In this document: in pieces, positions 52,257 through 64,000 of the stretch
How the letters are laid out: every line of letters starts with the position of its first letter
Numbering within the stretch: position 1 is the stretch's first letter
NCBI GenBank assembly: GCA_963739455.1
Contig: CAVUAK010000001.1
Coordinates: forward strand, 1,984,001-2,048,000
Direction: 5' to 3'
DNA: 64,000 nt
DNA from: an uncultured Gemmatimonadales bacterium
GTDB lineage: Bacteria > Gemmatimonadota > Gemmatimonadetes > Gemmatimonadales > GWC2-71-9
Translations under genes and position numbers: made by a program
Notes under the pieces: model-generated
Told to the model about the DNA's origin: nothing
The model's input: the letters and a program-made list of their open reading frames with translations, nothing else
The model's database searches: none

Positions 52257-55200
52257 CCAGTTCGCTGGTGGAGGTTTGCCCTCGGCGCCACGGTGCTGTG
52301 TGGCACCGAGTGGCTTCATGCCTTCGAGCGGCCCTGGGCCTGGGCCGCAGCCATCGCTGCGCTCGGCACGATGGTCCTGCTGCTTCCCGCTGGCAAGCTG
52401 GCCGCGCCGGGCGCTGATGGTCTCGCTGGCGCTCGTCACCCTCGTCATTCCACTGACACAACGCAGCCTCGACCGCATCGACCTGGGCTGGGAGGGTGAC
52501 CGTGGCGAGCGCGAGGCGCTGGTGAAGGCAGCCGGTGACCGCCTCGGCGGTGACCTCCGCTCCGCCCTGCAGCTGACCCAGCGCCTGGCCGACCTCGGCG
52601 CCGCCGCCGCCGAACGTGATCGCGATGCGGCCTTCCGGATCCTCGCGCGGGCGACAGCCTCAGAGCAACTCGAGTCCGGGATCGCGATCCTCGAGGCCGA
52701 CGGCACCCCGTGGGCCTGGGCAGGCAGTCACCGGCTTCCGCCACGCGCGGCCGGCGACTCGATCGCGTCAGCGAGCAGCCAATACTACGTGACGCTCGAG
52801 AGTCGCCGCCACTCCGGCCGCGACAGGGTCACGGTGGCCAACGTGCTCGTGTGGGCGCATCCGGCGGTGCCGGACCGCGCCGGAAGCCTGGCCGAGCGGT
52901 TCCGCGCCAGCACTGATGTGGCACTCGCCGTCTACCCGACCGACAGCGCGCCGGACAACACTGATGTGTTCGACTATTGCGAGCCAACCACGGCCGGCCG
53001 CCGGTGCCTCTTCAGCGCGCAGCCGCTTGCCACCGGTGCAGGCAGACGCCCGCGCACTCGAGGTGTCGCGAGGGGGCCGGGTGGCGGCGATCGGACTGCT
53101 GCTCGTGCTGGCACTTGGCCTGGTTGTCGAGGTCGGCTCCGCCGGCCGCTGGATGCTGGCGGTGCTCACGGCATGGCTCCTGGTTCGCGCGCCGGTGGGT
53201 TCGCTGCTTGGTGCCGGTGACCTCTTTTCGCCGGCGTCGTACCGGTTCAATCCCCTTGTCCCGCTCACCAACTCGGCAGGCACACTCGGGCTCGTGGGCG
53301 CGCTGTTCACCATGGGTGCGGTATGGCTGTGGCGTCGCCGCCTCCCGCGCCGATGGTGGAGCATGCTCATCGGCGCTCGGGCTGTTCCTCGGCATTCCGT
53401 TTGGCGTGAGCGCACTGAGCCGCGGCATCACGCCGCCGCCGGATGGGACGCCACTCGACCTGTGGCTCACCTGGCAGCTGGCCCTCTTCCTCGCGATCAC
53501 CGGACCGATGGTACTCGCCTCGGCGCTCCTCCGTGGCGATGCGGAGCCGCGCCGCGCCGGCTGGTGGTCATGGCTCGGCGTGGCCGCGGCGATTTCCGCC
53601 GCCGTCGCCGGCCTGTACCTCTGGCAGCCGTCGTCGGAATGGCCCTGGTGGTTCCCACTGCTGTGGACGCCGGTGCTGCTGGTCGCGAGCGTGCCCCTGC
53701 CGTCCGGCCAGGCGGTCGTCAGCATGGCGCTGGCGGCGGGGAGCCTCTCGTCGCTGTTCACGTGGCAGGCGGATCACCTGGGTCGCATGCAGCAGGCGGA
53801 GCGCGAGGTCTCGCGACTGGGGACCGAGGAGGATCCGGTCGCGCCGGCACTGCTACAGCTCTTCGCCAAGGCCGCACGAGAAGCGCCGCCGCCGGCAACG
53901 GCCACCGAGCTGTATGCGCTGTGGCGCACGTCGGTGCTTGCCGACCAGGGATATCCTGCGCGGCTCGCGCTCTGGACGCAGGATGCTGGCTGGGGCGCGG
54001 AGCTGGCGCTCGACTCGCTCGAGGTGGGACGACCGACGCTTGATTCGCTGCTGGCTGCGATACCGCGACCCGACTCGGTCGTCCGGATGGTGGCGCCTCC
54101 GGGGATGCACTACCTGCTCGCGACCACGCTCTCGAATGGAGCGGTGCTCGTCACCGTCATCGGCCCCGAGACGCAGCTCATCGTGCCCAGCCGTCTCGGG
54201 CGCCTGCTCGAGCCGACGGTGCACCGACCACCTTCCTACGTGCTCGCGCTGTCGCCGCCGATGGCGCAGTCCATCCCCACGGATGCACTGCGCTGGGAAC
54301 GCGAGGGATGGGTCCTGCGCGCCTCCCGCACGCTCGCGGTGGCCGATACGCGCCGCGAGGTATACGTGCAGATGGCGCTTCGCGGGCCGGTGCCGCTGCT
54401 GGTGCGCGGCGCCCTGCTGCTGCTGGTCAACATCGTGGTGCTGGTGCTGATCTGGTTGATGGCCGACTACTGCAGCGCGGCGACCAGTCCAGCGTTGGAT
54501 CGTGGCGCGCGGCGGCGCGCTCCTTCCGGGTGCGCCTCGCCGTGACGCTGGCGCTCTTCTTCCTGGTGCCGGCGGTCGGCTTCTCGGTGTGGGGTATCCG
54601 GCACTTCGCGCTGGATACGGCGCGCGTCACCGACGCGCTCATCAGCGGGACGCTGCGCGATGCGCTCCGCAGTTCCGGGGTGCTGGCCACGCGCGACTCG
54701 GCGTATGGCGCGCACCAGCTCGAGGCGCTCGGCCAGCGCATGGACGCCGACTTCGGGCTCTATGGCGGCGGGCGCCTCACCTCGACGAGCGCGCGGATCC
54801 TGCAGGACCTCGGCGTGCTGGGCGAGCTGATGAATCCGGACGCCTTCCGGCAACTGGCCTTCGGCGGCCAGCTCGAGGTGACCCGGATTGGTCCGCTCCC
54901 GACGCTTTCCGAGCGAGTGGGCTATCGGCTGCTGCTGCCGGGATCGCCGTCGCATCTCGGTGTGCTGGCCACGCCGCGCCGGCTGGGCGAACTCTCCACC
55001 GACTCGCAGTGGGACATCGCGCTGGGCGTGCTGCTGGTGCTGCTGCTCGGGCTCGCGGCGGCACTGCAGGGCGCGCAGTCTGCCGCGCGCGCACTCTCGC
55101 GTCCGGTGGCCGACCTGCGCCGCGCCGCGCTCGCACTTGGGGAAGGGAAGCCGGCGCCACCCCAGGAACGCAGTCCGCCGAGCGAGTTCGAGCCGGTCTT

Positions 55201-56244
55201 CGGCGCCTTCAACCGGATGGCGGCCGACGTGCGCGCGAGCCGCGAGGCGCTGGAGGCGGCGCGGCGGCGCACCGAGACGGTGCTGGCCACCGTGGCCACC
55301 GGGGTGATCGCCGTTGATGCCGGGGGACGGGTGCTGCTGGCAAACCGCCAGGCTGAGCAGCTTCTCGGCGTACCGCTGGCGGAGGGCGTGCGGCTGCGTG
55401 GCTACGTGAGCGAGGAGTGGATGCCGCTCGTGTCGGGGGTCGAGGAGGTGCTGGCGGGTCGGGAATCGGCGGAGGGACCGACGGAGCACGCCGTTGGCGG
55501 GTCGCCGCGTGAGCGCGCAGCACGCGCGGCTGGCCGGTCCACTCGGCGGCGTGGTGGTGGCGCTGACTGACGTCACCGACATGTCGTACGCCGCGCGCGT
55601 GCTCGCCTGGGGCGAAATGGCGCGGCAGGTGGCGCACGAGATCAAGAACCCGCTCACGCCGATGCGGCTTGGCATGCAGCACCTGCAGCGTGCCTGGCAG
55701 GACCGGCGCGGCGACTACGATCGCATCCTCACGGAAACGTCCGACCGCATGCTGGGGGAGATCGACCGGCTCGATCGCATCGCGCGGGCCTTCAGCCGCT
55801 TCGCCGCACCGAGGCGGTGCCGACGATCCGGTGGAGGCGATCGACATGGTCGCGGTGGCCCGCGAGGTGGTGCAGCTCTACGCCCTGTCGGATGCGGGGG
55901 CGCGGGTGGAGCTGAGCGCCCCGGCGGCGCTCGCCGGACGGGCGCGGCCGGACGAACTCAAGGAAGTGCTGGTGAACCTGCTGGAGAACGCGCGCAATGC
56001 CGGCGCGGCGAAGGTGCAGGTGTCGATCGAGGCGGGGCGTATCACGGTGACGGATGACGGATCCGGCATCCCCGCCGACGCGTTGCCGCGGGTGTTCGAG
56101 CCGCACTTTTCCACCAACACCAGCGGGTCCGGCCTCGGGTTGTCGATCGTGAAACGGCTGGTGGAAAGTTGGGGTGGTGCGGTCGCGATCAGCAGCGTGG
56201 TGAGGCGGGGCACGACCGTCACGATCCGGTACCTCCCCGCCTGA
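52245..56244 (+). CDS. Large multi-TM sensor histidine kinase (HAMP-PAS-HisKA-HATPase, NtrY-like; several indels)
   Basis: AFNRMAAD (HAMP), GVIAVD..ANRQAE (PAS), WGEMARQVAHEIKNPLTP, NLLENA, DDGSGI, FST..GSGLGL; start uncertain. Confidence 0.88.
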
Positions 56245-56327: not shown

Positions 56328-57008
56328 ATGCTTGCCCGCGTCTGCTCCGCCGCCGTGCTCGGCATCGACGCCTACCTGGTAGACGTCGAGATCGACATCA
56401 GTAGCGGGATGCCCACCTTCAATACGGTGGGACTGCCCCAGGGAGCGGTCAAGGAAGGCAAGGAGCGGGTCGCGGCGGCGCTGGCCAACGCGGGATACGC
56501 CCTCCCGCTCCGGCGCATCACGGTCAACCTGGCCCCGGCCGACGTGCCGAAGCAGGGATCCGCGTTCGACCTGCCGATCGCGCTGGGCGTACTGATCGCC
56601 AGCGAGCAGGTGCCTGCGTCGCTCTCGGATGCCCATGGCCGACGGACCGTCGTAGCGGGCGAACTGGGCCTCGAGGGCGACCTTCGTCCGGTTCGCGGGG
56701 CGTTGCCCATCGCCCTCGCTGCGCGTGCCGCGGGCGCTGCGGCACTCATCGTCCCACTGGCCAACGTGCCCGAGGCGGCTGTGGTCGCCGGGATCTCGGT
56801 CCTTGGCGCTGGCTCGCTCGCCGAGGTCTGCAGGCACCTCACCGGTGAGTCTCTCCTCTCAGCGGCCGCGGTGGATCCGGCGCGATACCTCGCGGCGGCC
56901 ATTCGCGATGACGCTGACTTTGCGGACGTGCGTGGGCAGGCGGGGGCAAAGCGAGCACTGGAGGTGGCGGCCGCCGGCGCACACAACATCCTAATATTTT
57001 CACCTTGA
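56328..57008 (+). pseudogene. comM: 5' half of comM/yifB Mg-chelatase-like AAA ATPase, interrupted by an integrated element
   Basis: VGLP..VKE..RV, ITVNLAPAD..K.GSAFDLPIA, GELGLEG, DVRGQAGAKRALEVAAAGAHNIL then IFSP* instead of the Walker A GPPG.GK. Confidence 0.9.
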
Positions 57009-57052
57009 GGACCTAAGGACCGCTGGGTAGGTTCAACTCAAGGAGACAGCCA

Positions 57053-58714
57053 ATGAGCCCCACGAAGTCGAAGAACGAGCCCTCGGACAACAAACCCCGC
57101 GCCTTCAGTTACCTGCGCTTCTCATCCCCAGAGCAGTCAAAGGGAGATAGCTACCGGCGTCAGACCGAAGCGGCGGAGGCGTACGCAACCGCTCACGGGC
57201 TCACTATCGACAAGCGGAGCTATCGAGATCTCGGCATCTCGGCCTTCCGTGGGAAGAACGTGGAAGAGGGGGCCCTAGGGGAATTCCTCGAAGCGGTACG
57301 CCTTGGGATCATTCCGAAGGGCTCTATCCTGCTCGTTGAAAACCTTGACCGCATCTCTCGGCAGACTGCCCGCAAGGCATTCATGACGCTCAATGGCATC
57401 ATCGAGGCGGGCGTGGAGGTTGTCACGCTTTCCGATGGACGCCGGTACAGTCAGAGCACGCTGGATGAGGGCATGGTTGAGCTTCTCGCATCCATCCTGC
57501 TCTTCTCCCGCGCCAATGAGGAGAGCCTCACGAAGGCTCGCCGGATCTCTGCCGCGTGGTCGAACAAGCGGATGAAGGCACGTGTGCACGGCACGCCGAT
57601 GACGAAGCGCGTTCCGGCGTGGATGGAGCTGAAGGATGGGAAGTACCGCCTGATCCCGGAGCGGGCGAAGATTGTGAAGGACATCTTCACGCGCTGTCTC
57701 AAGGGCGAGGGACAGGCCCTCATTGCTCAGGAGTACAACAGGGCCAAGCTCCCAGCCTTCGGCAAGGCGAGCTACTGGCACAAGAGCTACATCCTCAAGG
57801 TTCTGGACAACCCCGCCGCCTACGGGACACTCGTTCCCCATATGATGAAGGACGGCAAGCGGGTCCCAGAAGGGCAACCGCTGAAGGGGTTCTATCCAGC
57901 CGCTGTGGATGAGGAACTCTTCCGCCGCACACAGGACGTGCGCCGTGCGCGGGGCTCGCGAAGGACCTCGCAAAGGCCCTTGAGGAATCTCCTTGGGGGC
58001 CTCGCCAAGTGCCCGAAGTGCGAATCCGCCATGACCATCGTAAACAAGGGAAAAGACGGAGGAGCAATCCGGCTCGTCTGCGTAAGAGCGAAGGCTTCGG
58101 CAGGCTGTCAGTATGTCACTGTAGTCTATGACGCTGTAGAGGCGGGGCTCATCACAGGACTGCACAACTCGGCGGTACCAGTCGCAGAAGGTGGCTGGGA
58201 TAGCTACGGCGTGAGCGGGCTTGAGTCGGACCTTGCTCTCGCGGAGACCAGCCTCGAAGTGGTAGACGCCAGCATCGAGAAGTTCATGCAAGCCATTGAG
58301 CAGGCGGGCTCCTCTGCGGCCATCACCGGGAAGATCCGCAGGCTGGAGGCTGAGAAGGAGGAACTTCTTGAAAAGCAGCGCACGCTGTGGGCTCAAATCG
58401 AGGAGGCGCGGCACCCTCTGACGGAGAAGAAGATGTCAGAGCTTCAAAAAGCCATTACAAAGGAGCCGCTGGATAGGAAGCTCATCAACTCACTCCTTCA
58501 TCAGATCTTCACGGAGGTCATCGTGGACTACGAGAAGGGCGCGCTTCGGCTGAAGTGGGCACACGACGGCTACACCGAGGTCGGATACTCTGCCGGATTC
58601 TATGGGTTCGAAGAGATGGTGGAAGTCGAGGCCAACACCTTTGTCACCAAGGCGGAGGCAAAGCGGATGATGCCGGTCTCGAAGAAGGATATTCGGAAGA
58701 AGAAGACCGCCTGA
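57053..58714 (+). CDS. Large serine recombinase (resolvase + recombinase + zinc ribbon + coiled coil)
   Basis: AFSYLRFSSPEQ..GDSYRRQ, DLGISAF, LLVENLDRISR, RANEES..K..R, CPKC..LVC..C; AAGGAG RBS. Confidence 0.95.
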   Translation: MSPTKSKNEPSDNKPRAFSYLRFSSPEQSKGDSYRRQTEAAEAYATAHGLTIDKRSYRDLGISAFRGKNVEEGALGEFLEAVRLGIIPKGSILLVENLDRISRQTARKAFMTLNGIIEAGVEVVTLSDGRRYSQSTLDEGMVELLASILLFSRANEESLTKARRISAAWSNKRMKARVHGTPMTKRVPAWMELKDGKYRLIPERAKIVKDIFTRCLKGEGQALIAQEYNRAKLPAFGKASYWHKSYILKVLDNPAAYGTLVPHMMKDGKRVPEGQPLKGFYPAAVDEELFRRTQDVRRARGSRRTSQRPLRNLLGGLAKCPKCESAMTIVNKGKDGGAIRLVCVRAKASAGCQYVTVVYDAVEAGLITGLHNSAVPVAEGGWDSYGVSGLESDLALAETSLEVVDASIEKFMQAIEQAGSSAAITGKIRRLEAEKEELLEKQRTLWAQIEEARHPLTEKKMSELQKAITKEPLDRKLINSLLHQIFTEVIVDYEKGALRLKWAHDGYTEVGYSAGFYGFEEMVEVEANTFVTKAEAKRMMPVSKKDIRKKKTA

Positions 58715-58740
58715 AGCGCAACTCCAGCAATATCCATGAC

Positions 58741-58763
58741 GAGGCCCCCGCGCAGGGGGCTTT
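58741..58763 (+). terminator. Hairpin after the recombinase gene
   Basis: GAGGCCCCC-GCGCA-GGGGGCTTT. Confidence 0.6.
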
Positions 58764-58796
58764 CCCATATTGCCTACCAACACCTCCCCGGAGCCT

Positions 58797-59477
58797 ATGC
58801 CTACCAAGAAGCCAGTGAAGAAAACCAAAGAGCAGCAATGGGCCGCTACGGTTGCCCGCTCGAAGCACGACATGAAGGCGAGCCGGGTCTACTGGAGCAA
58901 CTACATCGCAACCTTTCGAGGCACCCACGCTGAGGACATCAACCCACGCTCACGCACCCCCATCCCCCCACTTCGGACCTGCCCCCTCCCAGACCGTGAG
59001 GGAGCCCCGTCACACATCCTGCGAAACGAGGCGGGCGTTCCTGTCCTGCGGCTCGTGGTGGATGATGACCGGTGGTCCTTCTGCATGAGCGAGGAGGCAT
59101 TCCAACGGTTGCAGGCGGAGGGTCGGAAGTCCAAGCCCGAGGTGGCTGCTCAGAGTGACCGTGAGTGGGCTACTCTCGAAGCCCTCCCCTACACACCCCA
59201 TCGCCAGCCGGGAGAGTTCGAGCCTAGCCTCGCCCTTGATCCGGCCGCACGACAGGAACGGCTGGACCTTGAGAGCGAACGGCTGCGGAGGCTGAGGGCT
59301 TATCACGAGCGCAGAGTATTTGATCCAGAGCGCCAGCGGGGACAGGCGGCGGCAAATCGGCGGCAGGATGCCCGCTTCGAGGCGTACAGAGCCGCAAGGA
59401 ACATCCGAAACGAGGCTCTTGGGCTCCCGCTAGAGGAAAATCCTATGGATTGCGGAACGCACACTTCACCTGCTTAG
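58797..59477 (+). CDS. Hypothetical basic/Arg-rich protein of the element
   Basis: GGAG RBS before ATG 58797; open frame; no family recognised. Confidence 0.55.
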   Translation: MPTKKPVKKTKEQQWAATVARSKHDMKASRVYWSNYIATFRGTHAEDINPRSRTPIPPLRTCPLPDREGAPSHILRNEAGVPVLRLVVDDDRWSFCMSEEAFQRLQAEGRKSKPEVAAQSDREWATLEALPYTPHRQPGEFEPSLALDPAARQERLDLESERLRRLRAYHERRVFDPERQRGQAAANRRQDARFEAYRAARNIRNEALGLPLEENPMDCGTHTSPA

Positions 59478-59849
59478 GGCGTAGCTAGTGGTAAAGTTGC
59501 GCTCTTCAGTCCAATATTTCTGATGCAACTTGCCATCTCTCATGTCGATGGATACGACCCCCGCCAGAGGAGGCCCATAGGCGCAACTCCAGTTACGCTC
59601 ATCAAACACATCACAATTCGTAAACGTCTCCGTATCCCGCCCAAGGTCGCCCTCTCGGTCGCTGGCGTCCAAGACCCAAAGGACTTCCTTCTTCTCCTGA
59701 TCGAGCTTGTAGCGAACGACAAAAACGGTGGGGCTTTTCCTGTCAACGGCTGGCTCTTTCCGGGTCCAAGTATAGCGGCGTTCGACCATGCCGCAGCCAG
59801 ACGAGGCGAGCGCAAGTGCACCCAGCACCGCCCATCTAGCATGAATCAT
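59466..59849 (-). CDS. Hypothetical lipoprotein
   Basis: Hydrophobic stretch ending LALASSGC (lipobox); NCDVFDERNWSC. Confidence 0.7.
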   Translation of the reverse strand: MIHARWAVLGALALASSGCGMVERRYTWTRKEPAVDRKSPTVFVVRYKLDQEKKEVLWVLDASDREGDLGRDTETFTNCDVFDERNWSCAYGPPLAGVVSIDMRDGKLHQKYWTEERNFTTSYALSR

Positions 59850-60011
59850 CAAGCTGGATATCTGCTGTCTCATTCGAAAGCTCCTTGGCATACGCGAAGA
59901 GTGTGCGGTCTCGGCCGGGAACTGGCAAGGCGGCTAGGCCGATCGCCCCATGTACCTAGACAGAAGCGGTACCGCGAGCGACCCTTCGCACTACCCCTTA
60001 CGGATTCCAAC

Positions 60012-60473
60012 GTGAAAGTCTATCGGCTTCTCCTGCTCGCCTTGGCCGTGCTTCCACAGCTTGCAAACGCACAGCAAGATACGGCGCTCGCAAGGATGGA
60101 TTCGGCTAATGCCGTCCTTCAAGCCCGCCTCATCAAGGGCCGCGAGTGTACGAGTGAGGTGATGCCGGAGAGAGGACCAGTGACCAACTGCGATTTCATC
60201 TTGCCGGGGGCAATGCACCTCACGGCGGGGTCAGTCGGCACCGATAACCCCTCGGTCGTGGTGAACTGGACGGAGCGAGCCTACCGGTTCTACATCACTC
60301 AGCAAGACGGAGGCATGTGGGTGACGGTCTGGTACTCGGATGACCAACGTCCACCGGGAAACTGGAAGCATGGGGAGGCGTGCATCAACGTGAAGACGGC
60401 GCTAGTCTACCCAATCTCATGCGTGTGGGTCGTCATTGGGAATGCGAAGGGAAAGCCGAAGATCGGGAAGTGA
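60012..60473 (+). CDS. Hypothetical exported protein
   Basis: GTG start, signal peptide KVYRLLLLALAVLPQLANA, four Cys in the mature part. Confidence 0.65.
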   Translation: MKVYRLLLLALAVLPQLANAQQDTALARMDSANAVLQARLIKGRECTSEVMPERGPVTNCDFILPGAMHLTAGSVGTDNPSVVVNWTERAYRFYITQQDGGMWVTVWYSDDQRPPGNWKHGEACINVKTALVYPISCVWVVIGNAKGKPKIGK

Positions 60474-60553
60474 GATTTCTCCGGGGAATCTTGCGCTCGT
60501 GGGGTCGAAACGGGAGAATCGAGAAGGGCAATGGCGTCCTCTAGGAGGAACTG

Positions 60554-61192
60554 GTGGTAAGGTACACAGTGGCTCTATTGGTCGGACTCGCCCCGTTCTG
60601 CTGCGTCCCTGTTTGGGCGCAGATGACTCCTACCCCAAGCTCTTCCCAAAGTGCAGAGCCACAAAAGGCAGACCCCAATGCGCCGCTTCCTAAAGTAGGG
60701 GAGCCCACAGGGGACGCCATTCCTTTCTTCAAGGTTGATTACAACCAGTTCACCGACAGTACCACCCTCAAGGGACCGAGGTTGGATAAGGTGTCCTTCT
60801 ATGCGCGCATGGAGGCGAGCTTCCTCGGTCAGAAGTTGCCAGAGACTTTTCAGACTGTGTTGCGCTTCGAGTACAAGGACATCGGGAATGCGAGAGCGAT
60901 TCCGCTAGGAGCGGAGCTGTCACCCTTCAAGACGGGTGGGACGGTCTACCTCCTCTTTGATGGCGGTGCGGCTCGTGCTGCGCTCCCCATTGTAGCGACG
61001 AGGTTTGAGGCAGCAGCGACAACGCCAGTCTACAAAGGCTGGGCGGTGGTCTCGGATTCAGTTTTGCGGTTGATGAGCGCGTCAAAGAAGATTGAAGCGC
61101 AGTTCTTCGCTAGCCCAATGGGCAAGTGGACACTCCCGAACGACTCGCCGGGAGCGGCTCAGGTCCTCCTCCGACTGCTTGAGACCAAGTGA
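60554..61192 (+). CDS. Hypothetical exported protein
   Basis: AGGAGG RBS; signal peptide ending VWA; YNQFTDSTT motif. Confidence 0.7.
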   Translation: MVRYTVALLVGLAPFCCVPVWAQMTPTPSSSQSAEPQKADPNAPLPKVGEPTGDAIPFFKVDYNQFTDSTTLKGPRLDKVSFYARMEASFLGQKLPETFQTVLRFEYKDIGNARAIPLGAELSPFKTGGTVYLLFDGGAARAALPIVATRFEAAATTPVYKGWAVVSDSVLRLMSASKKIEAQFFASPMGKWTLPNDSPGAAQVLLRLLETK

Positions 61193-62130
61193 CAATTTTT
61201 TCATCGCGACTTCCAAAGTCCGTGATGCGCGACGGGCGCTCTGCTAGGCTCAAGAAGCTCTTAAGTGGTGAGGAAACTCAGCACGTCGAGTTCAAGAAAT
61301 CGGTTGGGTTAGTCGAATCAGCAGATTTTGTGCAGTTTGCAAATTCTTCTGATGGCGGCGAAATCCTCGTCGGTGTGGAGGAGGTTAAAGACGGCAATGG
61401 TCGAAGAATGCCCACGGTGGTTGGCTGCCTCACCACTGACGCGAACAAACGAAGTCTGCTGGACAAAGCGGGTTCATGTTCGCCTCCAGTAGACATCACG
61501 GTCCACGTGGAGAAGGTCGAGGGCAAGCAATTCTATCGGGTGGTGATCCCGAGTGGACTGCACAAGCCCTATTGCACAGCAAGTGGGACTTACGTTATCC
61601 GAAACGACGGCGAGAGGAAGGCTTTGCTCCCCGCACAGCTACTGAATCTTTTTCTTGAATCGCAGGGGACTACGTTCGTGGAACGCTTTAAGGAAGCTTC
61701 GAGGGGAATTGATGAGGCTCTGAAGGAGATGCGTAGTCGTATTGAGGAAGCAGGCAGTGCGACGGAGGAGCAGCTCAACCTCATCTCACGGGTTGCTGAG
61801 CACGCGAGTGAGACATCCGATGAAGCTATGAGCAATGCCGCTGATGCCGTCGCTGCAATTGAAGATGTCTCTGCTCAAGTCGATGCCGCTCACAATGACC
61901 TTCTTGAGAGTGTCCACAGCGCGAACCGGAGGCTGAAGAAGGTTCTCAAGCATCAAGGGATCTCAGATCCGGATGAGGATGACGCTGAGTATTGGCGGAA
62001 GTTTGCGGAGAAGCAGGAAGCGAAGGAGAGAGAGGCGGCGGCACTTCTCGGGCAAGCCGCCAGCCAAGAGAAGTCAAAGGGTTCCAGACCTTTGCGGTCG
62101 CGAAAGAACGCTTCGCGTAAGCGCAGTTAG
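61189..62130 (+). CDS. Schlafen/AlbA_2 domain protein with C-terminal coiled coil
   Basis: GEETQHVEFK, FANSSDGGEILVGVEE, PPV, IPSGLHKPYCT..GTYVIR; then long heptad-rich helices. Confidence 0.85.
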   Translation: MTIFSSRLPKSVMRDGRSARLKKLLSGEETQHVEFKKSVGLVESADFVQFANSSDGGEILVGVEEVKDGNGRRMPTVVGCLTTDANKRSLLDKAGSCSPPVDITVHVEKVEGKQFYRVVIPSGLHKPYCTASGTYVIRNDGERKALLPAQLLNLFLESQGTTFVERFKEASRGIDEALKEMRSRIEEAGSATEEQLNLISRVAEHASETSDEAMSNAADAVAAIEDVSAQVDAAHNDLLESVHSANRRLKKVLKHQGISDPDEDDAEYWRKFAEKQEAKEREAAALLGQAASQEKSKGSRPLRSRKNASRKRS

Positions 62131-62220
62131 GTGAGAATCGACATAGACCGGGCTGCTAGGAGTTGAGTGGTTTTCTGAGTACCTTGTGTTGGTAGGTATC
62201 CACCCCCTTCAAGGAGGCCC

Positions 62221-62532
62221 ATGACTACCCCCAGTGACCCCCCAAGTACCCCGCCACTCCCCTCAGCAGGCTCCCGCCCCGAAGACAAACCCCTCTCCTA
62301 TTGGCTCGACCTCGTAGCCTCCTGTATTCCTAGCAAAGATCCCAATGATGGTCCAACCGATTTCACTGGACGAATCCCGAAGACCGTGGAAGAGCGGGCG
62401 TACATCGGACATCTGGCGCGAGGCGGGACGTTGAGCTTCGAGATCTTTTCGAGGTGGTCAACGGAAGTGATGGATCAGGTCTTCATAGAAACGCTACAGG
62501 AGTTTCGGGAGGAGCGGGGGGCGAAAGCTTAG
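62221..62532 (+). CDS. Hypothetical protein
   Basis: Strong AAGGAGG RBS before the ATG; 103 aa. Confidence 0.6.
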   Translation: MTTPSDPPSTPPLPSAGSRPEDKPLSYWLDLVASCIPSKDPNDGPTDFTGRIPKTVEERAYIGHLARGGTLSFEIFSRWSTEVMDQVFIETLQEFREERGAKA

Positions 62533-63116
62533 ACCTCGCCGCGAGTCTTCTTGAGACGCCGCATGGCTTGTTGAATCGCCGTCGAGACATATTCGGGCTG
62601 GCGCTGTATCTGATGCCCGGAGAAGCGCAGGAGCGTGTACCCCTTCGCCTGTAGCGCATTCCCCACTCGATAGTCCTTCTCGCGCTGTGGTACCGTCGAG
62701 TGAAAGTCATGGCCGTCGCAGTAGATGGCGAGTGGCAGGGTCAGATGGAGCAAGTCAGGGTAGGTGTCTCCCGGTTCACACTCGCCCGCAATGCTCAAAT
62801 ACGGGATAATGAGTGCGCGGCCCCGCCTGAACTCCGACATGATTCCGCACCGAACAAGCAGCCGATCCATATCAAGCTCGATCTCCGACTCAACCATTAT
62901 CAGAGAAGCTGCTCTCTCCATGAGGACCGGCAGGATGTCGCGGAAGGAGAGCGCCTTCGAAGCTCGTGGGACCTTCCATGCGAGGAGGTCACTGAAGCGG
63001 TTGCAGAGGTCGGCAAGCAGCCGCTCTTCCCCCAAGGTGAGAGCTACCGCCGCGAGACGCGCGAGGGCGTTGTCGGTGGTCGGCTGGGGCTTCGGTGAAG
63101 GAGCAACTGAGGTCAC
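62529..63116 (-). CDS. DUF559/Vsr-like (PD-(D/E)xK superfamily) endonuclease-domain protein
   Basis: PDLL..LAIYCDGHDFH..QREKD..NALQAKGYTLLRFSGHQI. Confidence 0.82.
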   Translation of the reverse strand: MTSVAPSPKPQPTTDNALARLAAVALTLGEERLLADLCNRFSDLLAWKVPRASKALSFRDILPVLMERAASLIMVESEIELDMDRLLVRCGIMSEFRRGRALIIPYLSIAGECEPGDTYPDLLHLTLPLAIYCDGHDFHSTVPQREKDYRVGNALQAKGYTLLRFSGHQIQRQPEYVSTAIQQAMRRLKKTRGEV

Positions 63117-63805
63117 TTCTTGGCCCGTCGTGATTTCGGGGTTGGGGCCTTCCGTCGCGAGGGTTGCGTTTCGGCGCGGACTGTTTGCATGCCAAACTCA
63201 CTGTCCGATTGTGCTGAAACGTCCATTGTTAGGCCGGACGCCAATGCGGCATGAAAGAGGCCGTGTTGCTGAATGTCTATCTCGAAGAGATCCACCGCAT
63301 CATAGAGGGCGTGCGCGTCGAGAGACGAAAGCTCACGCAGCTTAGGAACGAGGGTGGCGGCAACCTTTGCTGGCTCAACTCGTGATGGGAAGGCCCGATG
63401 TTCGGGCTTCGCAATCTTGACCCATTCGTCGACAACGGCCCAGAGAAAGCGGGGGATTCTCTTGCGCTCAGAAGCGATCGCTTCTACGAGCAGAAAGGCC
63501 TCCTCACGAGTCAGGCGGAGTCCAAGCACGGTCTCGCGAGCGGTAGCGTAGTACCTCTCAAGATCTCGCCGCACTATTGCCGCAAGTGATTCGTCCGGCC
63601 AGCGCCGACGGCGAGCCACTTCCAAAGCCAGTTGTTCCCCGAGCCTCAATGAGATCGGGGGATTCCCAATATCAACGGTGTTGACGCCAACAGAGATGGT
63701 GAACCCGGACATGGGCTCACCGTCCTTCACGAACGGCCCCTGCGGACCGAAGGGTATCGGTTCGCCGATAAGGCCGGGAGGAGTCGTGGGCGGGTTGTCA
63801 GTCAC
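63113..63805 (-). CDS. Hypothetical protein with ribbon-helix-helix-like DNA-binding segment
   Basis: PISLRLGEQLALEVARR..SLAAIVRRDLERYY (beta-alpha-alpha pattern); start uncertain (GTG 63805 or ATG 63712); stop overlaps the nuclease start. Confidence 0.6.
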   Translation of the reverse strand: MTDNPPTTPPGLIGEPIPFGPQGPFVKDGEPMSGFTISVGVNTVDIGNPPISLRLGEQLALEVARRRRWPDESLAAIVRRDLERYYATARETVLGLRLTREEAFLLVEAIASERKRIPRFLWAVVDEWVKIAKPEHRAFPSRVEPAKVAATLVPKLRELSSLDAHALYDAVDLFEIDIQQHGLFHAALASGLTMDVSAQSDSEFGMQTVRAETQPSRRKAPTPKSRRAKK

Positions 63806-63830
63806 ACAGGAGGTCCAGTTAAGGTTCCCG

Positions 63831-63859
63831 AAGATACAGGTGTATACAAATGTCGTCAA
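63831..63859 (-). promoter_or_regulatory. sigma70 promoter with palindromic operator in the spacer
   Basis: Minus strand TTGACG, 17 bp, TATCTT (preceded by TG); TGTATACA palindrome at 63841-63848. Confidence 0.75.
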
Positions 63860-64000
63860 GTGTATTGGAAGGAGGAAGGCTCTGAACCGACCTGAGGCTG
63901 AGATTTTGTTGCGGGCACAGGAGCGCCTTGTTCTCCCCCTCAAGTGTGGTAGTAATCCCCCCTAGGGGGCCTTGTCAGGGGACCCACCAAATCGGGGCCG

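What the first reader, a model, noticed from the sequence alone, without database searches (positions are those of the whole stretch)
56328..64000. Serine-integrase element splits comM just before its Walker A motif
Seen: comM reads ..ALEVAAAGAHNIL, switches to AT-rich non-homologous sequence and stops at 57008. A complete large serine recombinase starts at 57053, followed by lower-GC orphan genes. Known: comM/yifB is a recurrent integration hotspot, its disruption lowers natural transformation, and large serine recombinases are sought as genome-editing tools. Inference: this is a possibly uncharacterised integrase/att pair in a poorly studied lineage. No capsid, terminase or conjugation genes are visible in the first 7 kb, so it may be a satellite or cargo island, and excision could switch comM back on.
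Basis: partly seen in the sequence, partly recalled or inferred. Interest (0 to 1): 0.72.

Follow-up and report, generated by a model that had tools for sequence, protein, structure and literature searches.

The report
comM island with doubled T7-scaffold mimic
A 16-kb mobile element has cut the DNA-recombination gene comM at a site that such recombinases commonly use; the unusual part is that it has no capsid genes yet carries a predicted DNA polymerase and a tiny protein made of two copies of a T7-type phage scaffold's tail, so it likely parasitises such phages.

Summary
The split is real. comM breaks at a CT dinucleotide (56,991-92) and resumes in frame 15,964 bp later on the same contig; rejoining gives HNILLIGPPGSGKT, as in same-genus alleles. 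The recombinase looks intact, but the insertion is ordinary: 60 of 80 related recombinase loci abut a comM half, and comM is a published top target.

The interest lies beyond the window. No capsid, portal, terminase or tail gene was detected. The element encodes a family-A-fold polymerase, an HNH nuclease, defence-like cargo and a 103-aa protein of two T7-scaffold C-terminal tails; 80 of 80 phage scaffolds checked have one tail. Three related comM elements in Gemmatimonadota carry other T7-type parts (RNA polymerase with repeated promoter-like motifs, SSB, scaffold tails, internal virion protein).

Best reading (0.5): a satellite of a T7-type podophage using a CpmB-like scaffold mimic. Rivals: shrunken prophage (0.25), anti-phage island (0.2). 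Excision, capsid binding and packaging are untested. Earlier notes of this scan reached the same idea on this genome, noted scaffold-tail satellites on other DNA, and found comM splits in at least 11 other genomes.

The parts
56328..56990 (+). comM (YifB/Mg-chelatase-like ATPase), 5' part, ending at ...GAHNI
56991..56992 (+). attL crossover dinucleotide CT (first two bases of the Leu codon after H-N-I); the element arm has its GGACC motif 16 nt to the right
57053..58714 (+). large serine recombinase, 553 aa, co-oriented with the comM 5' half
58770..59477 (+). 235-aa orphan directly after the recombinase; untested candidate for a directionality factor
   Evidence: no Pfam, PHROG, PADLOC or NCBIfam hit; role is inference from position only
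59466..61192 (.). orphan ORFs: 141 aa (-); 316-aa frame (+), real start probably later; 212 aa (+), with a signal-peptide-like N-terminus by eye
   Evidence: no family hits
61189..62130 (+). Schlafen/AlbA_2-domain protein (defence-like cargo)
   Evidence: PF04326 E 7e-14; no PADLOC hit
62529..63116 (-). DUF559/REase_MTES_1575-like nuclease
   Evidence: E 1e-5 and 3e-6
63113..63943 (-). 276-aa orphan frame (real start probably later)
   Evidence: no family hits
63944..64000 (.). The element runs on 9 kb past the window end. In window-equivalent numbers (C1 minus 1,984,000; L001 plus 56,000): two 31-nt imperfect repeats, candidate origin or operator, 65,008-65,242; 479-aa family-A-fold polymerase-like protein P0001, 65,872-67,311 (+); zinc-finger/HNH nuclease, 67,688-68,143 (+); 274-aa Cys/His-finger helical protein, 68,871-69,695 (+); 103-aa two-tail T7-scaffold protein P0004, 69,913-70,224 (+); about 690-aa GHKL/restriction-like protein, about 70,759-72,828 (-); attR core CT, 72,955-72,956; comM 3' part with Walker A and AAA+ domain, to 73,863 (+).
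   Evidence: repeats; polymerase: 18, 37, 39, 47, 52, 123; HNH: 11, 12, 142; 274-aa protein: 50, 84, 124, 126, 128; two-tail protein: 12, 36, controls 107, 136; GHKL protein: 11, 12, 13, 120; attR and comM 3' part: 5, 8, 12, 120, 130

Best explanation
A 15,964-bp element with its own large serine recombinase splits comM at the family's usual codon, and it is likely a capsid-less satellite of a T7-type (Autographiviridae-like) podophage. Shown: the site-specific insertion with matching att motifs; no detectable head, portal, terminase or tail gene; a polymerase-fold gene; an HNH gene; a protein of two scaffold tails. Inferred: on helper infection the recombinase would excise a circle and so restore comM; the polymerase would replicate it; the two-tailed protein would occupy the scaffold-binding site of the helper capsid protein, as CpmB does for SaPI1, and shrink or divert heads so that the 16-kb genome is packaged. 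The defence-like cargo would pay its way in the host.
For: Both tails match the C-terminal stretch of T7-type head-assembly proteins. T7 gp9 and the S-CBP3 scaffold have one tail each, at the C-terminus. 80 of 80 viral loci have one tail, the 75 complete ORFs are 219-279 aa, and 79 of 80 lie near a portal or capsid gene, so a 103-aa two-tail protein is a derived form. Five other short proteins with two or three tails exist (P0005, P0008, P0009, P0010, P0012). Related comM elements carry other T7-type parts. G423 (complete, about 14.9 kb) has a T7-type RNA polymerase, a gp2.5-like SSB, a one-tail 129-aa protein and two exact copies of a promoter-like 23-mer, with no capsid or portal hit. G336 (about 11.4 kb) has the same polymerase family plus an internal virion protein. 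G089 has an RNA polymerase and a protein with a weak tail match plus a second tail-like stretch. In 401 phylum genomes the only PF00940 and PF05396 hits were in these comM elements. The polymerase model matches Klenow/Taq (E 8e-5, 17 hits at E<=0.001) and virophage replication proteins. The scaffold-mimic mechanism has a precedent in CpmB (PMC5644958, passages).
Against: No small terminase or pac site was identified, and no AlpA/Stl-type regulator. This element has no T7-type promoter repeat. No helper was found: no capsid, portal or T7-type polymerase in the own genome, which is 84% complete. Most members of the recombinase clade show none of these parts, and the 29 complete ones are 3-11-kb islands. 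The four T7-module elements share no core gene besides the recombinase and do not resolve as one clade. A related recombinase serves a full podovirus prophage that also has a weak homologue of the polymerase (G428), and G089 has an internal virion protein and a fibre-like gene across an assembly gap; both fit decay from a prophage. Contexts of the other multi-tail proteins are unknown.
Confidence: 0.5

Rival explanations
1. The element is the shrunken remains of a temperate T7-type podovirus prophage that used this recombinase. The scaffold tails and polymerase are leftovers, and the island now persists as a cargo carrier.
For: G428 holds a roughly 35-kb podovirus prophage (portal, scaffold, capsid, tail tubes, TerL) with a related recombinase and a weak homologue of the polymerase, E 3e-7. 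The four Gemmatimonadota elements keep different subsets of T7-type genes. G089 may be a near-full prophage with a gap.
Against: Plain decay should leave one tail or pseudogene debris, not an intact 103-aa ORF with two copies that each keep the motif. No fragment of portal, capsid or tail genes was detected. The polymerase family also occurs in two metagenome loci with no capsid gene seen by eye, one beside a tyrosine-integrase-like gene (L114, L115).
Confidence: 0.25
2. It is an anti-phage island. The two-tail protein is a dominant-negative decoy that jams T7-type head assembly, and the element is not itself packaged through that protein.
For: Cargo includes AlbA_2, a DUF559 nuclease and a GHKL/restriction-enzyme-like protein. 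No packaging gene was found. A bivalent tail could cross-link capsid subunits as easily as resize heads (inference).
Against: The tail gene is co-oriented with the polymerase, HNH and 274-aa genes in one module, while the largest defence-like gene is on the other strand. Related elements keep RNA polymerase, SSB or internal virion proteins, which point to use of the phage cycle. PADLOC gave only partial restriction-enzyme matches.
Confidence: 0.2
3. The element is mainly a regulated switch for natural transformation: programmed excision restores comM when needed.
For: Excision at the CT core restores HNILLIGPPGSGKT, and the recombinase looks intact. ComM is a branch-migration helicase for transformation (10.1101/147660, abstract).
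Against: Insertion at this codon recurs across many phyla with unrelated cargo and in both orientations, as expected of a conserved landing site. No regulator or directionality factor was identified, and competence of this host is unknown.
Confidence: 0.05

Closest known systems
LSR-borne elements that target the Mg-chelatase/ATP-dependent-protease (comM/yifB) gene (Durrant et al., PMC10083194, passages)
   Same: Same target gene, site-specific recombinase architecture, and the same codon as related loci in other phyla.
   Different: Larger than the 29 complete relatives seen (3.0-10.9 kb; the 10-kb flank caps this), and it carries a polymerase-fold gene and a doubled T7-scaffold tail.
SaPI1 and its scaffold mimic CpmB (Dearborn et al., PMC5644958, passages)
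   Same: A small element-encoded protein that shares the C-terminal motif of a phage scaffold, in a capsid-less integrated element.
   Different: The motif is of T7 type and doubled within one chain, whereas CpmB is a dimer. No CpmA or TerS was found; the integrase is a serine recombinase in comM; binding is untested.
PICIs as modelled by SatelliteFinder (PMC10085698, passages)
   Same: Order of integrase, accessory genes, replication module and capsid-related gene; no tail or holin detected.
   Different: No AlpA/MerR/Stl regulator, primase-replicase or small terminase detected. Replication likely rests on a family-A-fold protein.
T7 islands of enterobacteria (Chen and Schneider 2006; only the citation was seen, in PMC2189734; content recalled)
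   Same: Recalled as small integrated islands proposed to be satellites of T7-like phages.
   Different: Recalled as tyrosine-integrase islands with tandem T7-like promoters. This element has a serine recombinase and no such promoter repeat.
TV-Pol family (Iyer et al., PMC2579912, abstract and two of three parts of the text)
   Same: Stand-alone 400-600-aa family-A-like polymerase without exonuclease, in a mobile element with a serine recombinase; two conserved aspartates and a conserved hairpin-position arginine.
   Different: The RxxxK finger motif lacks its arginine in all 4 aligned sequences, and no D5 helicase is adjacent.
VEIMEs and PLEs (PMC9618062, passages)
   Same: Some VEIME modules and PLEs use serine recombinases; some VEIMEs carry HNH or DNA polymerase genes and lack capsid genes.
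   Different: VEIMEs are packaged as concatemers without capsid resizing; the word 'scaffold' does not occur in that paper's main text.

Membership tests
comM-targeting large serine recombinase elements | Recombinase with Resolvase, Recombinase and zinc-ribbon domains | tested here: met
   catalytic-region residues invariant in 4 aligned relatives
comM-targeting large serine recombinase elements | Both comM halves flank the element and rejoin in frame at a 2-bp core | tested here: met
comM-targeting large serine recombinase elements | att arms with the family motif about 16 nt from the core | tested here: met
   GGACC on the attL arm; TGTCC (4 of 5) on the attR arm; family pattern
comM-targeting large serine recombinase elements | Recombination activity | not testable with these tools
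   needs a bench assay or junction reads
PICI | Integrase at the element end | tested here: met
   serine recombinase at 57,053; the tyrosine type of classic PICIs is recalled
PICI | AlpA/MerR/Stl regulator | tested here: not met
   no such hit in Pfam, PHROGs or NCBIfam scans of the element's ORFs; only one ORF under 60 aa was scanned
PICI | Primase-replicase module | tested here: inconclusive
   no primase or helicase hit; a family-A-fold protein stands in its place
PICI | Capsid morphogenesis gene | tested here: inconclusive
   scaffold-tail protein present; effect on capsids untested
PICI | Small terminase subunit | tested here: not met
   no PHROG or Pfam TerS hit; TerS diverges fast, so a remote one is not excluded
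cf-PICI or T7-type prophage | Own capsid, portal and large terminase | tested here: not met
T7 islands (features recalled) | Tandem T7-like promoters | tested here: not met
   best match 15 of 23 to the T7 promoter, as in the other elements scanned; no match within 8 mismatches to the G423 motif; a promoter of another specificity is not excluded
TV-Pol | Two catalytic aspartates, hairpin arginine and family-A fold | tested here: met
   D251, D419 and R221 invariant in 4 sequences; Foldseek matches; model pLDDT 69.5
TV-Pol | RxxxK motif in the fingers | tested here: not met
   K303 conserved, no arginine four residues before it in any of 4 sequences
Phage satellite (functional class) | Helper-dependent excision, replication and packaging | not testable with these tools
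   no helper or reads in hand

The most novel reading that the evidence does not exclude
comM-targeting serine-recombinase elements in Gemmatimonadota include an undescribed class of capsid-less satellites of T7-type podophages. They replicate with a family-A polymerase or run their own T7-type RNA polymerase, and remodel helper heads with a single-chain, two-tailed scaffold mimic that arose independently of CpmB, Sid and CapR.
Probability: 0.35. Interest if true: 0.8.

Novelty: new variant of a known kind. Interest (0 to 1): 0.55.

Why it matters
The integrase and att pair alone add one more member to the best-known LSR target class; it is usable as a tool candidate but unsurprising. The cargo matters more. 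Four searches found no paper describing a satellite with a T7-type scaffold-tail mimic, though the T7-island paper could not be read. If the two-tail protein resizes or blocks T7-type heads, it gives a 103-aa probe of how the scaffold tail sets capsid size. No solved chain matched that tail in the PDB sequence search. It would also show that T7-type phages infect and are parasitised in Gemmatimonadota, where only 1 of 401 genomes searched had a T7-type RNA polymerase.

Tried and rejected
Reads: no sequencing run was listed for the first 10 kb of the locus, so no junction reads were laid; this is no evidence either way.

Complex prediction of the tail with the T7 capsid protein was not available, so binding is unmodelled.

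Alternative crossover registers: a 17-20-nt inverted repeat suggests a centre 4 bp to the right (giving HNILMIG), and an AT core would give HNMLLIG. Both were rejected. Five of 6 same-genus alleles printed read HNILLIG and the sixth HNILLLG, and the family motifs are symmetric about CT.

The 274-aa protein: its three best structural matches were single-subunit RNA polymerases (T7 residues 42-252, Z 6.7, rmsd 5.1, 139 aligned; yeast and human mitochondrial, Z 6.1), but an unrelated chain scored 6.0, the model has pLDDT 62, profile comparison gave no support (probability 0.1%) and the viral library gave nothing. It is kept as a lead only. The Atlas could not read this sequence.

Longer or fused forms of the tail protein: none scored in a search of 306-2000-aa proteins, which is weak evidence and excludes typical 220-300-aa scaffolds. 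P0006 and P0007 were dropped by eye as repeat-protein chance hits. Five weak profile hits in other phylum genomes (E 0.001-0.01) were not followed up.

No close viral-contig or GenBank-phage relatives of the polymerase or the two-tail protein were found. The single recombinase found none in viral contigs; its alignment found 4 loci, none with T7-type genes by eye. No Rfam hit; sigma-70 and terminator counts were at chance. The recombinase tree was the quick version and left the T7-module elements in a polytomy. The TIGER paper (2020) and the T7-island paper (2006) were not held.
Full report
Observation. comM begins at 56,328, reads ...ALEVAAAGAHNIL and runs out through IFSP to a stop at 57,008; a 553-aa large serine recombinase (LSR) starts at 57,053. 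The window is G000:C1:1,984,001-2,048,000; numbers above 64,000 below are window-equivalent (C1 minus 1,984,000). A six-frame motif search of the genome found one GPPGSGKTM, about 16 kb further on the same contig. GC is 0.54-0.61 per kb across the interval and 0.69-0.73 in the 3 kb on either side. The host phylum is Gemmatimonadota, inferred from the taxonomy printed for the own-phylum recombinase relatives.

Attachment sites. Of 6 same-genus intact alleles printed, 5 read GAHNILLIGPPGSGKT and one HNILLLG. Joining the two junctions at CT (56,991-92 and 72,955-56) gives exactly the majority peptide, with 44-50 of 57 nt identical to those five alleles; the element is 15,964 bp core to core. In 45 attR-type junctions of related loci, including this one, the core position holds CT 32 times, TT 10 and AT 3, and a GGTCT-like motif lies about 16 nt from the core. 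Here the attL arm has GGACC at that distance and the attR arm TGTCC. A longer 17-20-nt inverted repeat is shifted by 8 bp, because each arm holds the motif twice.

The recombinase clade. A scan of one genome per species gave 107 relatives, of which the best 80 were kept. Of these, 43 have the LSR divergent from the comM 3' half, 17 have it behind the 5' half as here, 2 have an intact comM just upstream, 2 have comM further off and 16 show no comM, several being cut short. 29 elements were complete within the flank, 3.0-10.9 kb. Durrant et al. state that the Mg-chelatase/ATP-dependent-protease gene is targeted by 12.4% of predicted site-specific integrases (PMC10083194, passages; supplements not read). 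The insertion is therefore ordinary, and earlier scan notes record comM splits in at least 11 other genomes.

Cargo. No ORF scanned matched capsid, portal, terminase, tail or conjugation families, and T7 and S-CBP3 capsid and portal queries found nothing in the element or the genome. The left part holds orphans, an AlbA_2 protein and a DUF559 nuclease; the right end holds a GHKL/restriction-like protein. Between them is a co-oriented module: two imperfect 31-nt repeats (65,008 and 65,212), a 479-aa protein (65,872-67,311), a small ORF, an HNH nuclease (67,688-68,143), a 274-aa protein (68,871-69,695) and a 103-aa protein (69,913-70,224).

The 479-aa protein. It has no Pfam, PHROG or NCBIfam hit, but keeps R221, D251, K303 and D419-G420 in 4 aligned homologues. 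Its model (pLDDT 69.5) matches Klenow and Taq polymerases (best E 7.6e-5, TM 0.33) and virophage replication proteins. The nearest Atlas cluster with a family is DNA_pol_A at 0.76, a lead only. It resembles TV-Pol (PMC2579912) but lacks the arginine of RxxxK and a D5 helicase, so I call it a family-A-fold polymerase and infer, without proof, that it replicates the element.

The 103-aa protein. It has two stretches that match the last 35-40 residues of T7-type head-assembly proteins (PF05396 E 2e-10; phrog_1052 E 2e-14). As controls, T7 gp9 (307 aa) and the S-CBP3 scaffold (256 aa) have one tail at the C-terminus; a two-tail homologue matched one place in each of 892 phage records; and 80 of 80 viral loci (53 distinct C-termini) have one tail, in complete ORFs of 219-279 aa (75 complete), 79 of them near portal or capsid. 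The tail profile was built from the query and its homologues, so only its scores on phage proteins are independent. A search of 1.84 billion representatives gave 9 hits: self, two chance hits, five proteins of 111-174 aa with two or three tails, and one of 74 aa with one. Their contexts are unknown. That the T7 scaffold tail binds capsid is inferred by analogy with CpmB/80alpha and P22 (PMC5644958, passages); no solved chain matched.

Sister elements. 3 of 400 other phylum genomes have this LSR, all in comM. G273 is a plain 8-kb cargo island. G336 (about 11.4 kb) has the same polymerase family and a 1,193-aa internal virion protein, phrog_6651. G089 has a T7-type RNA polymerase and a 212-aa protein with one weak tail match (E 0.002) and a second tail-like stretch; across an assembly gap it has an internal-virion-protein end and a fibre-like gene. 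A fourth, G423/L035, is complete at about 14.9 kb: LSR, RNA polymerase (E 1e-214), gp2.5-like SSB, a one-tail 129-aa protein, a resolvase and defence-like cargo, with no capsid or portal hit. It has two exact copies of a 23-mer, 13 of 23 identical to the T7 promoter at the best shift, one after the polymerase and one before the SSB. Among 401 phylum genomes, PF00940 hit only G089 and PF05396 only this genome.

Results against the satellite reading. This element has no promoter repeat of that type, no TerS and no known regulator. A PHROG scan of 102 ORFs (of 346 extracted; those of 260 aa or more in loci without both ends) found a podovirus packaging and tail set only at L063, a tape-measure protein at L096 and a TerS at L081. 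L063 lies in a roughly 35-kb prophage with portal, scaffold, capsid, tail tubes and TerL, which also has a weak homologue of the polymerase. The T7-module elements are unresolved in the recombinase tree (3 changes needed; 295 of 500 shuffles as low; quick tree of 82 rows). No helper was found in the own genome, 84% complete.

Mechanism and odds. Integration is shown by anatomy; everything after it is inferred. The doubled, intact tail in a capsid-less element, the recurrence of T7-type parts in sister elements, and a size near 35-40% of a T7-type genome (39.9-45.9 kb) fit a satellite with a CpmB-like mimic (0.5). The similar size ratio of SaPI1 to 80alpha is recalled. A reduced prophage (0.25) or a decoy defence island (0.2) remain open; a dedicated comM switch is unlikely (0.05).

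Literature and novelty. Ten searches were run; those aimed at T7-type satellites listed none that describes a scaffold-tail mimic, judged from listings and abstract starts. Read as passages: PMC10083194, PMC5644958, PMC10085698, PMC9618062, PMC10134795, PMC2189734, PMC12884075. Abstract and outline only: 10.1101/147660. Abstract and two of three parts: PMC2579912. The T7-island and TIGER papers were not held and are recalled only; the first may already cover related elements. Verdict: known kind of insertion, new variant of satellite-like cargo, interest 0.55.

Noticed in passing
window-equivalent 72,952-72,954 and attR junctions of L030-L109: The element arm supplies an in-frame ATG one codon before the core in 16 of 45 attR junctions, against 0 of 16 intact alleles from this phylum. 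The ComM AAA+ half could be made as a separate protein, or the ATG is a by-product of the recombinase binding motif.
   Followed up: partly
57,004-57,020 and window-equivalent 72,935-72,954: A 17-20-nt inverted repeat between the att arms is offset by 8 bp from the core symmetry, because each arm repeats its motif with 8-bp spacing; possibly a past slip at the attR arm.
   Followed up: partly
L035:9,915-21,509 / L130 (G423): Complete 14.9-kb comM element with its own T7-type RNA polymerase, two exact promoter-like 23-mers, an SSB and a one-tail scaffold protein, but no capsid or portal hit; a possible new polymerase-promoter pair.
   Followed up: partly
L063, L135, L136 (G428:C17, about 21-56 kb): Podovirus prophage with a related recombinase and a weak polymerase homologue; the flanking gene halves look like comEC by eye (name recalled), another competence gene. 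No T7-type RNA polymerase was seen among its ORFs.
   Followed up: partly
G046, G049, G058, G059: comM matches come in two pieces that break near residue 67 of the protein, suggesting a second insertion site in this order; G058 has about 11.5 kb and G059 about 51 kb between the pieces.
   Followed up: no
window-equivalent 68,871-69,695; L038:11,606-12,298; L044:11,639-12,304; L095; L033: An orphan Cys/His-finger plus helical family recurs near these recombinases, in L038 before a ParB-like gene; its top three fold matches were single-subunit RNA polymerase N-terminal regions (Z 6.1-6.7, not clear of background).
   Followed up: partly
window 63,950 to window-equivalent 64,500: A stretch without a convincing ORF, rich in C/G runs and CTAG. 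CTAG occurs at 2.1 per kb in the element against 0.29 per kb on the contig. Candidate packaging or origin region.
   Followed up: partly
54,300-56,244 and window-equivalent about 73,560-73,650: Host genes near the element look frameshifted: the sensor kinase is spread over several frames, and a stretch of about 30 codons in the comM 3' half seems to leave and regain frame. Likely assembly indels.
   Followed up: no
L114, L115: The polymerase family also sits in cargo-rich metagenome loci with no capsid gene seen by eye, in L114 beside a tyrosine-integrase-like gene (by eye), so it is not tied to comM or to this recombinase.
   Followed up: no
L062, L073: Two loci have the recombinase beside an intact comM on short contigs, possibly a restored or duplicated target.
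   Followed up: no
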